Assembly: GCA_964344145.1 (NCBI GenBank)
Contig: CAYFME010000001.1
Span: 16,896 to 80,895, forward strand
DNA: 64,000 nt
Direction of reading: 5' to 3'
Source of the DNA: an uncultured Gammaproteobacteria bacterium
GTDB taxonomy: Bacteria; Patescibacteriota; Patescibacteriia; UBA9934
The position numbers were made by a program, and so were the translations under genes. Below, one piece after another: positions 58,537 to 60,395 of the stretch (position 1 is its first letter; each line of letters begins with the position of its first letter). Below the pieces are notes generated by a model, which did not search any database, was not told where the DNA came from, and saw only the letters and a list, made by a program, of their open reading frames with translations.

Positions 58537-59667
58537 ATGTTCGAGCTCGGAGGAACAACTGATCGTGCACGAAGCGGAACGTTACGCACGAACCACGGCA
58601 GTATTGAGACGCCGTTTTTCATGCCCATTGCCACAAAGGGCGCTGTCAAAACACTCACCGCAGAGGAGGTGGGTGTTCTTGGTGCACAAATCATTCTTTC
58701 CAACACGTATCATCTGTTGCTCCGGCCAGGCTCGGATGGCATGAAGCAACTCGGCGGTTTACACAAGCTGATGCATTGGAATGGACCGATCCTCACCGAT
58801 AGCGGCGGGTATCAGGTGTTTAGTCTTTCCAAGCTCAACGATACAAACGAAGAAGGGGTGGCGTTCCAGTCACACATTGATGGCACACGTATCACGCTCA
58901 CGCCTGAGGGTTCGATGGCTATGCAAGCCGTCATTGGATCAGATATAATCATGCAGTTTGACGATGTAGCGGCAGGGGATTCTTCTCGCGAGCGTTACAA
59001 GGATGCCATGAAGCGTTCATTGCGTTGGGCGCAGCGTTGTAAAGATGCCTATGATAATCGTCAGCAATTGTTCGGCATTGTTCAGGGTGGCACGCACGAG
59101 GATCTGCGCGAACAATCAGCAAAAGGATTGATGGATATCGGGTTTGACGGATATGCGATTGGTGGGCTCTCGGTGGGTGAGCCGCGAGAGGATGCGTTTC
59201 GCATTACGAAACGTGTGTGTGAGCTGCTGCCGAAAGATAAGCCGCGCTATTTCATGGGTGGCGGCATGCCCGAAGAGATCGTGTACTACGTGAGTGTTGG
59301 CGTGGACATGTTCGACTGTGTGCTGCCAACGCGCAATGCACGTCACGGGACGTTGTTCCTCTGGAAAGATGATCCGGCCAAGGCGGTGAAAGAGGCCTTT
59401 GCGCTTGCGCAAGATGGTGCGGCAGACACGCGCATTGCAAACGCGTTGTACGAGAAGGTACAGATCACACGCCAGTCGTTTGCGTTCGATCTCTCACCAA
59501 TCGATCCTCTCAATGACACGGTGGCGACATCGACGACGTTTACGAGAGCCTACCTGCGCCACCTGTTTAAAACAGACGAAATGCTCGGCTACCGCTTGGC
59601 GACGATGCAGAATCTCGGCTTTTATCTACGGCTGATGAAAGAACTACGATCTCTACTCACTAAGTGA
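58537..59667 (+). CDS. tgt: queuine tRNA-ribosyltransferase
   Basis: [57 protein letters not shown] and CxCxxC-type zinc region. Full-length 376 aa. Confidence 0.9.
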
Positions 59668-60391
59668 ATCGAAGTTGAAGTATGCGTAATGTAGTACTCG
59701 CTGAAGGAGAGCATTATCACGTTTTTAATCGAGGTGTTGATCGAAGAGCGGTTTTTGAAACAGATAGCCAATTTCAGAGGTTTTACGAAAACCTCTATCT
59801 ATTTAATGATGTCAGTTACGCGCGTCGAGGCATGACGGAATTGCAGCGGACGACGTTGCTGGCCTCTGCGTTAGCGTTTGAGCACGAGCGGGAACCCTTA
59901 GTGGATATCGTTGCGTTTATCTTGATGCCGAATCACTTTCATCTTAATTTAGTGCAAAGAGCAGAACAAGGTATATCAAGGTTTCTTCATAAGCTCGAGA
60001 TGGGTTATTCCAAGTTTTTTAACATACGTTCTGAACGATCTGGCAATCTCTTTAATCATTCATTCGGATCTCGACATATAGATACAGAAGCCTATTTTGC
60101 GCATGTCCCTCGTTATATTCATCTAAACGCATTAGACTTGACTCCGCTTGATTGGCGAGCGGGTAAGCTCTCACAACAGGATTGGCTATTGGCAAAAGAC
60201 TTCCTCGACACTTATCGTTGGTCCAGTCATTCAGCATACGCTCGAAGAGAGCAACTGTTGCCTATAGTGTCCACGGAATGGATTCATGACCTATTTGCCA
60301 ATCCTGAGCTTTATGATGTTTTTCTGCGTGAATGGTCCGGCAGGTACAAGTTCGACTCACTAAGTGAATCGAACCAGACCCTACTCACTAA
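59653..60391 (+). mobile_element. IS200-like insertion bounded by three copies of a 20-bp direct repeat (CT)ACTCACTAAGTGAAT(C/T)GAA
   Basis: Copies at 59653-59673 (overlapping the tgt stop, ...LLTK*), 60344-60363 and 60371-60391 (tandem, 7 bp apart). The second copy supplies the transposase C-terminus LLTK*. Confidence 0.5.
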
Positions 60392-60395
60392 GTGA
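59682..60395 (+). CDS. tnpA: IS200/IS605-like Y1 (HUH) transposase, unusually long (237 aa)
   Basis: HxH motif ILMPNHFHLNL and catalytic-Tyr region AYFAHVPRYIHLNAL, the Y1_Tnp signature. The ORF terminates in a copy of the flanking repeat. Confidence 0.65.
   Translation: MRNVVLAEGEHYHVFNRGVDRRAVFETDSQFQRFYENLYLFNDVSYARRGMTELQRTTLLASALAFEHEREPLVDIVAFILMPNHFHLNLVQRAEQGISRFLHKLEMGYSKFFNIRSERSGNLFNHSFGSRHIDTEAYFAHVPRYIHLNALDLTPLDWRAGKLSQQDWLLAKDFLDTYRWSSHSAYARREQLLPIVSTEWIHDLFANPELYDVFLREWSGRYKFDSLSESNQTLLTK

What the first reader, a model, noticed from the sequence alone, without database searches (positions are those of the whole stretch)
59653..60395. Long IS200-like Y1 transposase abutting the tgt stop codon, flanked by three copies of a 20-bp repeat
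The transposase has the HUH (NHFHLNL) and Tyr (RYIHLNAL) motifs. At 237 aa it is much longer than canonical IS200 TnpA. A 20-bp sequence containing the tgt stop (CTACTCACTAAGTGAATCGAA) recurs twice in tandem at the other end. The transposase ORF terminates inside one copy, so Tgt and the transposase share the C-terminal residues LLTK. IS200/IS605 elements normally have subterminal hairpins and no direct repeats. Long flanking repeats are more like the REP/RAYT arrangement.
Basis: seen in the sequence. Interest (0 to 1): 0.5.

Follow-up and report, generated by a model that had tools for sequence, protein, structure and literature searches.

The report
Hairpin-bounded RAYT-like transposase cassette in tgt
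A roughly 750-bp single-gene mobile cassette, encoding a long RAYT-like tyrosine transposase bracketed by its own hairpin-forming repeats, sits inside the last codons of the tgt gene of a Candidatus Uhrbacteria genome; it belongs to a large family in Patescibacteria that has this layout almost everywhere, which makes it an unusual variant of a known kind of element.

Summary
A 237-aa HUH/Tyr ORF (59682-60395) follows tgt, and ACTCACTAAGTGAATCGAA occurs three times here and nowhere else in 64 kb (0.02 expected).

The repeats are neither a target duplication nor native tgt sequence. Each is an imperfect palindrome, and together they are the hairpin ends of a ~748-bp insertion. Relatives with 84% and 81% identical Tgt have an uninterrupted site (tgt stop, 7 nt, next gene). 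The old tgt end (TCTGATATAA) survives at the right junction, 60403-60412.

A relative with 88% identical Tgt carries the orthologous insertion. Its transposase is 57% identical, intact, and has pN far below pS.

The protein is class-2 TnpA_Y1 (RAYT-like), not IS200-type:
- Its motifs and length resemble subclass 2.1, but no C-terminal HTH is detected.

In 70 of 80 homologous loci, nearly all Patescibacteria, the gene is bracketed by one genome-specific palindrome (0 of 307 controls). Extra solo copies lie nearby in 16 of 77 loci.

Verdict: a REPtron/TIRtron-like cassette that entered as a unit and persisted under selection. I rate it a new variant of a known kind, of moderate interest.

The parts
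58537..59667 (+). Host gene tgt (queuine tRNA-ribosyltransferase, 376 aa). Its last codons and its stop (about 59655-59667) are supplied by the inserted element.
   Evidence: Pfam TGT matches at E=5e-136. The 120 best homologues are Uhrbacteria/Patescibacteria Tgt proteins of 345-399 aa, mostly 373-378. Only the occupied genomes end in ...LTK.
59652..59654 (+). TCT at the left junction. The same TCT is at the right junction (60403-60405), so the insertion boundary is ambiguous by 3 nt.
   Evidence: Comparison with the empty sites in L089 and L092. The ambiguity allows TC|T breaks at the donor left end, the donor right end and the target, which would match the C|T cleavage rule measured for E. 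coli TnpA_REP (PMC3333891). This step is inference.
59655..60402 (+). Inserted cassette of about 748 bp (751 bp if the breaks are at TC|T): left hairpin, Y1 gene, two right hairpins.
   Evidence: Relatives have tgt stop, 7 nt, then the membrane-protein gene (L089 with Tgt 84% identical, L092 with 81%).
59655..59673 (+). Left-end repeat (copy 1). The imperfect palindrome ACTCACT-A-AGTGAAT (59655-59669) has one C.A mismatch and is followed by CGAA. It contains the present tgt stop codon.
   Evidence: It starts 27 nt before the ATG. Across the family the upstream palindrome usually starts 20-120 nt before the ATG, most often 30-60.
59682..60395 (+). Class-2 TnpA_Y1 (RAYT-like) gene, 237 aa. HUH at residues 85-87, catalytic Tyr145, and a conserved helical C-terminal extension (about 150-221). 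Residues 222-237 are read-through into the right-end repeats.
60351..60373 (+). Right-end repeat (copy 2). This is the longest palindrome, TTCGACTCACT-A-AGTGAATCGAA (10 of 11 arm positions complementary), and it lies inside the 3' end of the ORF, encoding ..DSLSES..
   Evidence: The fold of 60340-60410 is -8.4 kcal/mol on the + strand (z -2.1) and -10.9 on the - strand (z -3.6).
60383..60401 (+). Right-end repeat (copy 3), ACTCACTAAGTGAATTGAA. It contains the stop codon of the Y1 ORF in the same frame as copy 1 in tgt, which explains the shared LLTK.
60403..60419 (+). Relic of the ancestral tgt 3' end: TCTGATATAA (old stop TAA at 60410-60412) plus the original 7-nt spacer before the next gene.
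   Evidence: It matches the empty sites ...CTCTGATATAATAGAATC-ATG (L092) and ...CTCTGTTATAATAGATTC-ATG (L089).
60420..60794 (+). Host gene for a 124-aa membrane protein. In relatives without the insertion it directly follows tgt, and a ClpB-like gene (60796-63480) comes next.
   Evidence: The protein is 74% identical between the window and L089.

Best explanation
The feature is a self-contained cassette of about 750 bp. It consists of one gene for a class-2 (RAYT/TnpA_REP-like) HUH single-tyrosine DNA transposase, bracketed by copies of its own cognate imperfect palindrome: one copy at the left end and two at the right.

Shown:
- The cassette is an insertion into the last two codons of tgt, relative to close relatives.
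- The palindromes lie at the termini of the insertion: the left one starts at the junction (within the 3-nt ambiguity) and the last right one ends 5 nt before it.
- The insertion replaced the Tgt C-terminus SL(I/L)* with SLLTK*, and the stop codon now lies in the left hairpin.
- A relative carries the same insertion at the same place. Its gene is diverged but intact and has evolved under purifying selection.
- Almost every homologue in Patescibacteria has the same hairpin-gene-hairpin layout, each with its own palindrome sequence.
- In some genomes, solo copies or doublets of the palindrome are dispersed nearby.

Inferred, by analogy with E. coli TnpA_REP and IS608 TnpA:
- The palindromes fold as hairpins on single-stranded DNA and are bound by the enzyme.
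- The HUH-bound metal and Tyr145 cut next to the hairpin foot, plausibly at TC|T, which is present at both junctions and in the empty target. This forms a 5'-phosphotyrosine link, and strand transfer then joins the ends to a new site.
- The cassette therefore once moved as a unit, as an IS200-type element does. Since then it has behaved like a RAYT: low copy number, vertical inheritance and retention of function. In this genome there is no visible spread of the hairpins.
For: Repeat and palindrome:
- Three copies here and none elsewhere in 64 kb, against 0.02 expected. The three are copies of one unit in direct orientation, and the 19-mer also matches its own reverse complement with 3 mismatches, i.e. 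it is an imperfect palindrome.

Protein identity:
- Y1_Tnp is above its cut-off. REP_Tyr_transpos is the best NCBIfam model.
- HUH and Tyr are invariant in 42 homologues.
- The model has pLDDT 90.4.

Insertion:
- The empty sites L089 and L092 read tgt stop, 7 nt, membrane gene.
- The old tgt end is preserved at 60403-60419.
- Among the 120 listed Tgt homologues, LTK tails occur only in the occupied genomes.

Orthologous occupied site in L088:
- Tgt is 88% identical, Y1 57% and the neighbouring FN3 protein 58%.
- For Y1, pN is 0.29 against a saturated pS of 0.82. For tgt, dS is 1.5.

Family-wide architecture:
- In 70 of 80 loci the upstream and downstream flanks share at least 12 nt exactly (median 21 nt). 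In 307 shifted controls none does (maximum 11 nt) (details).
- The core TCACTAAGTGA is shared with homologues 50-57% identical in L005 and L088. L217 has the compensated variant GACTTAGTC.

Dispersal of solo palindromes:
- 16 of 77 loci have extra copies within about 10 kb.
- The doublet after uvrD in L005 is absent in relatives L094 and L095.
Against: - No activity data exist. Cleavage positions and the active strand are inferred.
- No second copy of the gene or hairpin is present in about 70 kb of this genome, so current mobility is unproven.
- No near-identical elements in different contexts were found among 80 species representatives.
- Only one clean occupied/empty comparison was obtained.
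- The upstream and downstream palindromes are in direct orientation in half of the loci and inverted in the other half (32/32). A strictly one-strand IS200/IS605 mechanism does not predict this.
- The left hairpin abuts the junction with no room for an IS608-style 5' guide and cleavage-site spacing.
- The canonical 5' GT[AG]G foot of REPs is absent.
Confidence: 0.72

Rival explanations
1. It is a true REPtron: an immobile, domesticated RAYT whose flanking palindromes are members of a genome-wide REP/REPIN family that the enzyme spreads in trans. On this reading the gene itself did not transpose with them.
For: - The fold and motifs are class-2 TnpA_REP-like.
- The gene is low-copy, vertically persistent and under purifying selection.
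- Extra palindrome copies lie away from the gene in 16 of 77 homologous loci.
- L005 has a solo REPIN-like doublet that its relatives lack.
- The literature says REPtrons do not transpose as a unit (PMC3333891; PMC6006769).
Against: - About 70 kb of this genome holds no other copy of the 19-mer, even allowing 3 mismatches within the 64-kb window, nor of the 9-nt core CACTWAGTG.
- The insertion boundaries coincide with the hairpins and the empty site is clean, so gene and hairpins arrived together.
- There is no 5' GT[AG]G foot.
- The NCBIfam equivalog score is 42, against a cut-off of 80.
Confidence: 0.17
2. It is an ordinary autonomous IS200/IS605-family insertion sequence (TnpA_IS200 type) with left-end and right-end subterminal hairpins, transposing through a single-stranded circle.
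For: - It has HUH/Y1 chemistry, and hairpins in the same orientation at both ends in this copy.
- It inserted as a unit without a clear target duplication.
- IS608 and ISDra2 TnpA are significant structural matches.
Against: - The Y motif is YIHLNA (class-2 Y---N), not the Y---Q of subclass 1.1. The length is 237 aa against about 152.
- There is no tnpB.
- There is a single copy in 70 kb, and copies within one genome are highly diverged, unlike the roughly 99% identical multicopy IS200 elements.
- The hairpin abuts the left junction, and half of the family has its end palindromes inverted.
Confidence: 0.07
3. The palindromes are regulatory elements of the gene (an operator for autoregulation upstream, a terminator or mRNA-stabilising stem downstream) rather than recombination sites.
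For: - Their positions are fixed relative to the ORF: usually 20-120 nt upstream of the ATG (most often 30-60) and at or near the stop.
- REPs are known to affect transcription termination and mRNA stability (PMC3733652 abstract).
Against: - The same sequence is used at both ends and marks the insertion boundaries.
- No T-run follows the stems, and the terminator and promoter scans are at background level.
- Solo copies are inserted elsewhere in some genomes.
- The gene product is a hairpin-binding nuclease fold.
- A secondary regulatory role is not excluded.
Confidence: 0.03
4. The repeat is native tgt 3' sequence duplicated on insertion (a target-site duplication), or the copies match by chance.
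For: Copy 1 overlaps the tgt stop codon, and TCT occurs at both junctions.
Against: - Empty-site tgt genes end ...CTCTG(T/A)TATAA and lack the repeat.
- Of the 120 listed Tgt homologues, only the two from occupied genomes (one is this genome's own Tgt) end in LTK.
- Chance expectation is 0.02 copies.
- The same layout, with other palindromes, is present in 70 of 80 homologous loci.
Confidence: 0.01

Closest known systems
REPtron: E. coli TnpA_REP / RAYT with flanking REP/BIME (Nunvar 2010; Bertels & Rainey 2011; Ton-Hoang 2012, PMC3333891; structure 4ER8)
   Same: - It has HUH plus a single Tyr in a Y---N motif.
- The gene is bracketed by cognate imperfect palindromes. A stem mismatch is conserved in all three copies here, and a stem mismatch is required for binding in E. 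coli.
- It is low-copy and vertically persistent.
- The TC|T available at both junctions fits the C|T cleavage rule.
   Different: - The protein is 237 aa against 165, with a conserved helical C-terminal extension.
- The sequence score is below the NCBIfam equivalog cut-off (42 against 80).
- There is no 5' GT[AG]G foot.
- No genome-wide REP family is visible (0 extra copies in about 70 kb).
- The cassette inserted as a unit, which REPtrons are reported not to do.
TnpA_Y1 subclass 2.1 (Quentin et al. 2018, PMC6006769) = Bertels Group 1 RAYT = most TIRYT/TIRtrons (Di Nocera et al. 2013, PMC3733652)
   Same: - Length: the median for the subclass is 238 aa.
- Motifs: NH[YF]H (here NHFH); FQ or F-E in the family (G-LFEG / LFQG); Y[IV]HLNP (here YIHLNA; the family has YIHLN[AP]); and an SS motif in the tail (here W180-S181-S182).
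- TIRtrons are tyrosine-transposase genes bracketed by repeats that sometimes overlap the 5' or 3' end of the gene and are sometimes self-complementary.
   Different: - Subclass 2.1 is reported to have no REP-like hairpins near the gene, and its TIRs share GGGGWSAS. Here the flanks are short palindromic hairpins without that motif.
- The C-terminal HTH similarity of the subclass (Bac_DnaA_C, HTH_23, HTH_28) is not detected in any of 42 members.
- Parcubacteria and Saccharibacteria are not mentioned in that survey.
IS200/IS605 family (IS200, IS608, ISDra2; TnpA_IS200, subclass 1.1)
   Same: - It has the HUH/Y1 fold.
- The element is bounded by similar hairpins at its left and right ends.
- It inserted as a unit without an evident target duplication.
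- Precise empty sites exist in relatives.
   Different: - The Y---Q motif is absent.
- The protein is about 85 aa longer.
- There is no tnpB.
- It is not multicopy or near-identical within genomes.
- The hairpin sits at the very left tip rather than about 19 nt inside.
- In half of the family the end palindromes are inverted relative to each other.

Membership tests
HUH single-tyrosine (Y1) transposase superfamily (Pfam PF01797) | HUH metal-binding motif and one catalytic Tyr on the alpha-D helix, within the Y1_Tnp fold | tested here: met
   - PF01797 scores 26.1 bits against a cut-off of 23, and all 42 aligned members match it.
- H85, H87 and Y145 are invariant.
- The best fold matches are all Y1 transposases.
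IS200/IS605 TnpA (subclass 1.1) | Y---Q motif and a core-only protein of about 150 aa | tested here: not met
   The motif is RYIHLNAL (Y---N) and the length is 237 aa. Literature criteria are from PMC6006769 Table 1.
IS200/IS605 TnpA (subclass 1.1) | Subterminal hairpins at both ends on the same strand, and insertion without a target duplication | tested here: met
   All three copies of the imperfect palindrome are in the same orientation. The junctions share only an ambiguous TCT. In the wider family the orientation is direct in 32 loci, inverted in 32 and undecided in 6.
IS200/IS605 TnpA (subclass 1.1) | Several nearly identical copies per genome, often with tnpB | tested here: inconclusive
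   There is one copy in about 70 kb and no tnpB next to it. The whole genome was not available. Paralogues in the same MAG are less than 75% identical at the nucleotide level.
RAYT / TnpA_REP (class 2) | Class-2 signature Y---NP and closest similarity to E. coli TnpA_REP | tested here: met
   - The family consensus is YIHLN[AP]L; this copy has N149 and A150.
RAYT / TnpA_REP (class 2) | NCBIfam equivalog NF047646 REP_Tyr_transpos at or above its cut-off | tested here: not met
   The score is 42.3 bits against a cut-off of 80.
RAYT / TnpA_REP (class 2) | Gene flanked by cognate palindromic repeats (the REPtron arrangement) | tested here: met
   There is one copy upstream and two at the 3' end. 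70 of 80 homologous loci show the same arrangement, against 0 of 307 controls.
RAYT / TnpA_REP (class 2) | Conserved 5' GT[AG]G tetranucleotide at the hairpin foot | tested here: not met
   Copies 1 and 3 have CTAC 5' of the stem on the + strand, which is GTAG 3' of the stem on the - strand. Copy 2 has CGAC. Neither matches the canonical 5'-GTAG-stem or stem-CTAC-3' arrangement described in PMC3333891.
RAYT / TnpA_REP (class 2) | Flanking palindrome is a member of an abundant, dispersed intergenic repeat family in the same genome | tested here: inconclusive
   There are no additional copies in the 64-kb window or in the 6 kb beyond it. The rest of the genome could not be searched. In 16 of 77 related loci, extra copies exist within about 10 kb.
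TnpA_Y1 subclass 2.1 / TIRYT | Motifs NH[YF]H, FQ/W[EQ], Y[IV]HLNP and an SS tail; median length 238 aa | tested here: met
   The window copy has NHFH, YIHLNA, WSS and 237 aa. The family has LFEG/LFQG, while this copy has LFNH at that position. This was compared with Table 1 of PMC6006769. It is a motif comparison only; no joint phylogeny was made.
TnpA_Y1 subclass 2.1 / TIRYT | C-terminal HTH-like domain (Bac_DnaA_C, HTH_23 or HTH_28) | tested here: not met
   [not shown]
TnpA_Y1 subclass 2.1 / TIRYT | Flanks are long terminal inverted repeats (consensus GGGGWSAS) and no REP-like hairpins lie near the gene | tested here: not met
   The flanks are short hairpin-forming palindromes. In the window they are in direct orientation and lack GGGGWSAS.

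The most novel reading that the evidence does not exclude
The Patescibacteria family may be a distinct, undescribed subclass of class-2 Y1 transposases that bridges autonomous IS200-type elements and domesticated RAYTs.

On this reading:
- Each gene travels as a minimal unit bounded by its own hairpins.
- The unit then persists vertically for long periods under purifying selection in very small genomes, occasionally seeding solo hairpins or doublets.
- The even split between direct and inverted end palindromes, and the in-place flip of the hairpin core in L088, would indicate a mechanism in which the hairpins invert (flip-flop, as in rolling-hairpin replication or strand-switching recombination). 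That differs from the fixed-strand mechanism of IS608.
Probability: 0.2. Interest if true: 0.6.

Novelty: new variant of a known kind. Interest (0 to 1): 0.4.

Why it matters
RAYTs are the textbook case of a domesticated bacterial transposase, and how they arose from IS200-like elements is still unresolved. Published surveys describe REPtrons as units that do not move, and report subclass 2.1-like long proteins as lacking hairpins.

Three things here bear on that question:
- A class-2 enzyme sits in a cassette whose hairpins are the insertion termini (the left one abuts the junction; the last right one ends 5 nt short of it).
- A clean empty site exists in relatives.
- An orthologous copy has been kept under purifying selection.

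The same architecture recurs in about 88% of 80 sampled homologous loci across Patescibacteria. These organisms have genomes of about 1 Mb, in which persistent selfish DNA is unexpected.

This provides many natural enzyme-hairpin pairs with co-varying sequences for studying the specificity of HUH enzymes for single-stranded DNA. For annotation, it also explains why Tgt in this lineage ends in LTK.

Tried and rejected
- Dispersed copies of the repeat in the window: none found with up to 3 mismatches, nor by a whole-window repeat scan.
- Scan of metagenome contigs for the 15-mer ACTCACTAAGTGAAT: 120 or more single hits, none next to a Y1 homologue. These are chance matches in a very large database.
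- Second occupied/empty comparison around the L005 element, using UvrD relatives. Synteny upstream is broken in L094, and L095 ends 106 nt upstream of uvrD. No clean empty site for the gene was obtained; the comparison only showed that the solo doublet after uvrD is an insertion.
- Promoter, terminator and Rfam scans of 58-61 kb: background level. The only Rfam hit (mir-4798, E=0.64) is the palindrome pair.
- Significance of the left-end fold: weak (z about -1.5). Only the right-end region is clearly better than shuffles.
- Apparent second tgt-like stretch at 45706-45732: a chance similarity inside an unrelated 435-aa ORF.
- tblastn against plasmids: only about 27% identical 'transposase' hits, not informative.
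- tgt as a general target: rejected. No other homologous locus has tgt adjacent.
- The AFDB fold library was unavailable.
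Full report
**1. What is in the sequence**

tgt occupies 58537-59667 on the + strand and ends with TGA at 59665-59667. Fourteen bases later a 237-aa ORF starts (59682-60395), followed by a 124-aa membrane-protein gene (60420-60794) and a ClpB-like gene.

The 19-mer ACTCACTAAGTGAATCGAA occurs at 59655 and 60355 (exact) and at 60383 (1 mismatch). It occurs nowhere else in the 64-kb window, where 0.02 matches are expected and 0 of 100 shuffles reach 4.

The same search also hits the minus strand at 60351-60369, because the repeat is an imperfect palindrome. 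The core is ACTCACT-A-AGTGAAT, with one C.A mismatch conserved in all three copies. Copy 2 extends it to TTCGACTCACT-A-AGTGAATCGAA.

tgt ends inside copy 1 and the ORF ends inside copy 3 in the same frame. That is why both proteins end in LLTK.

**2. The protein**

- Pfam Y1_Tnp is above its cut-off.
- The best NCBIfam model is REP-associated tyrosine transposase, but at 42 bits against a cut-off of 80.
- A database search returned 622 homologues. The top 120 are mostly 220-250 aa, and those that carry a name come from Uhrbacteria, Paceibacterota, Portnoybacteria and other Patescibacteria.
- A profile search of 1.84 billion cluster representatives finds 1572 clusters at E<=1e-30 and 17,475 at E<=1e-10.
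- In an alignment of 42 members, H85, H87 and Y145 are invariant. So are residues in the N-terminal YHVxNRG motif and in the C-terminal extension: W158 and S182 are invariant, and Y178, W180, S181 and W218 are nearly so.
- The AlphaFold model is confident (pLDDT 90.4, pTM 0.86) except for residues 222-237, the part encoded by the right-end repeats.

The length is therefore a family trait, and the enzyme is RAYT-like (class 2), not IS200-type.

**3. It is an insertion bounded by the palindromes**

Tgt homologues identify the organism as a Candidatus Uhrbacteria relative. Their lengths cluster at about 373-378 aa.

Two relatives have an uninterrupted site:
- L089 (Tgt 84% identical): ...CGATCTCTGTTATAA-TAGATTC-ATG.
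- L092 (Tgt 81% identical): ...CGAACTCTGATATAA-TAGAATC-ATG.

In both, the ATG starts the membrane-protein gene, and in L089 the ClpB-like gene follows.

In the window the left junction reads ...CGATCTCT|ACTCACTAAG.... The right junction reads ...AGTGAATTGAAT|TCTGATATAA-TTGTCTC-ATG. The former tgt end, its TAA stop (60410-60412) and the 7-nt spacer are still present to the right of the element.

The inserted segment is about 748 bp (59655-60402). It begins with copy 1 and ends 5 nt after copy 3. A TCT at both junctions leaves 3 nt of ambiguity.

The insertion changed the Tgt C-terminus from SL(I/L)* to SLLTK*. Among the 120 listed Tgt homologues, only this genome and one other end in LTK. This refutes the idea that the repeat is native tgt sequence duplicated on insertion.

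**4. An orthologous, old copy**

The other LTK genome (L088, Tgt 88% identical) has a Y1 homologue at the same position. tgt there ends ...LHLTK* inside the palindrome CCTCACTAAGTGAAG.

- The two Y1 proteins are 57% identical.
- The neighbouring FN3 surface protein is 58% identical over its alignable half.
- Synonymous sites in tgt are close to saturation (dS about 1.5).

The divergence of the Y1 gene is therefore what a single ancestral insertion followed by vertical descent would give.

Both ORFs are intact with all catalytic residues. For Y1, pN is 0.29 against a saturated pS of 0.82, so the gene has been under purifying selection.

**5. The layout is a property of the whole family**

- A homologue 50% identical, in a different context (L005, between yceG and uvrD), is bracketed by doublets of CGTCACT(A/T)AGTGACG. 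This has the same TCACTWAGTGA core, and its ORF also runs into the downstream copy.
- L217 (50% identical) has GGTGACTTAGTCACC doublets, a compensated variant of the stem. L216 (49% identical) has a different palindrome.
- Eighty loci were taken from species-representative genomes, nearly all Patescibacteria, with Y1 identity of 31-46%. In 70 of them the region upstream of the start (-120 to -1) and the region around the stop (-50 to +80) share at least 12 nt exactly; the median is 21 nt. None of 307 shifted control pairs does (maximum 11 nt).
- The shared sequence is a palindrome of about 19-50 nt. It usually starts 20-120 nt (most often 30-60) before the ATG and again within about 45 nt either side of the stop. 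Its sequence differs from genome to genome.
- About a third of loci share an RGGT-N1-5-ACCY hairpin tip at both ends (26 of 80, against 0 of 306 controls).
- The two end copies are in direct orientation in 32 loci, inverted in 32 and undecidable in 6.

**6. Dispersal and copy number**

- In 16 of 77 loci, further copies of the locus-specific palindrome lie more than 200 nt from the gene within about 10 kb. A 19-mer with up to 2 mismatches is not expected by chance at this scale.
- In L005, a REPIN-like inverted doublet sits between uvrD and the malic-enzyme gene. It is absent from the same intergenic region of relatives whose UvrD is 77% and 75% identical. Solo hairpin doublets can therefore be inserted elsewhere.
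- No near-identical gene copies in different contexts were found among the 80 loci. The only pair (L062/L065) is the same region in two bins.
- MAGs with two copies have diverged paralogues, each with its own palindrome.
- In the window's own genome, no further copy of the hairpin is seen in about 70 kb.

**7. Mechanism**

Shown:
- The cassette is a discrete insertion whose termini are the palindromes.
- The protein has the fold and catalytic residues of a hairpin-binding single-strand DNA nuclease/ligase.
- The protein and its palindromes co-vary across genomes.

Inferred from E. coli TnpA_REP and IS608 TnpA:
- The palindromes fold on single-stranded DNA.
- The enzyme binds them and cuts beside the foot through Tyr145.
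- Strand transfer then moves the DNA between the two cuts.

E. coli TnpA_REP cleaves at C|T, including within the CTAC at the foot of an inverted REP, and it needs a mismatch in the stem for binding (PMC3333891). Here the 3-nt ambiguity allows breaks at TC|T at the left end (within CTAC), at the right end and in the target. That is compatible with the E. coli rule but unproven.

The minus-strand hairpin replaces the C.A mismatch with a G.T pair and folds better. The active strand is not known.

**8. Comparison with known systems**

Three descriptions are closest:
- the REPtron (a RAYT with flanking REPs);
- the TIRtron/TIRYT of Di Nocera et al. (PMC3733652);
- TnpA_Y1 subclass 2.1 of Quentin et al. 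(PMC6006769).

Features shared with subclass 2.1 are the motif set (NH[YF]H, FQ, Y[IV]HLNP, SS tail) and the median length (238 aa).

Differences:
- There is no canonical GT[AG]G foot.
- No C-terminal HTH is detectable in any of 42 members.
- Hairpins flank the gene, although subclass 2.1 is reported to lack them.
- The cassette inserted as a unit, although REPtrons are said not to move as units.
- It also fails the IS200 criteria: Y---Q motif, about 150 aa, and multicopy near-identical copies.

Two full-text searches found no paper linking RAYT/TnpA_REP with Patescibacteria or the CPR. The 2018 survey does not mention Parcubacteria or Saccharibacteria.

**9. Verdict**

The feature is a class-2 Y1 transposase cassette bounded by its own hairpins. 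It inserted into the end of tgt in an ancestor of this lineage and has been maintained since. It is one member of a large Patescibacteria family that shares this architecture.

I rate it a new variant of a known kind, with moderate interest (0.4). The main open points are whether the hairpins are dispersed elsewhere in this genome, which strand and which sites are cut, and whether the family is a separate subclass.

Noticed in passing
L088:2695-2725 and L088:3410-3445: In the orthologous element the two end copies share direct flanks (CTGCAC ... TACAAT), but the 14-nt hairpin core is exactly reverse-complemented between them (CTCACTAAGTGAAG against TTCACTTAGTGAGG). This is an in-place flip of an imperfect hairpin.
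   Followed up: partly
L008-L087 (80 homologous loci): The upstream and downstream palindromes are in direct orientation in 32 loci, inverted in 32 and undecidable in 6. A fixed-strand IS608-type mechanism would not predict an even split.
   Followed up: partly
L005:7848-7890: A solo inverted doublet of the L005 element's palindrome (CCGTCACTTAGTGACGTT-T-AACGTCACTAAGTGACGG) lies between uvrD and the malic-enzyme gene. It is absent from the same spacer in relatives L095 and L094. In L095 a short palindrome, TTCGTCACGACGAA, occupies that spacer.
   Followed up: yes
L021:1250-2300: There are two tblastn matches to the Y1 protein in this locus. A 93-nt direct repeat that includes the palindrome and the start of the ORF recurs 143 nt after the stop. 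This looks like a tandem or partial second copy.
   Followed up: no
L008-L087: About a third of the loci (26 of 80) have the same kind of hairpin tip, RGGT-N1-5-ACCY, at both ends of the gene (0 of 306 controls). The rest of the stem differs between genomes.
   Followed up: partly
L216:3662-3705: In this homologue the 3' end of the Y1 ORF, together with the downstream palindrome, overlaps the called start of the NAD-dependent DNA ligase gene by 44 nt.
   Followed up: no
L018, L022, L032, L046, L062: A few homologous loci come from MAGs labelled Omnitrophota, Gammaproteobacteria, Spirochaetia, Nitrospiraceae and Gastranaerophilales. L062 is 97% identical over 2.8 kb to L065, which comes from a Saccharibacteria-labelled MAG, so at least some of these labels reflect binning rather than host range.
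   Followed up: partly
window:46314-46520: A 28-nt inverted repeat (79% complementary; CTTTGGGAAAACAAAAAAAGAAGCCCTT / AAGGGCTTCTTTTTTGTTTCCCAAAAAG) has arms separated by 151 nt. The sequence between and beyond them may hold two short ORFs; by eye they resemble a HicB/HicA-type toxin-antitoxin pair, which was not tested.
   Followed up: no
window:56981-58471: This is a fibronectin-III-domain protein with long Thr/Ser, Gly and Asp/Ser low-complexity runs. Only its C-terminal half aligns with the orthologue in L088 (58% identity), so the N-terminal half evolves very fast.
   Followed up: partly
window:45706-45732: This stretch is 81% similar to the tgt 3' region (59560-59586) and encodes HLFKT..ML in both. 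It lies inside an unrelated 435-aa ORF, so it is a chance resemblance and not a tgt paralogue.
   Followed up: yes
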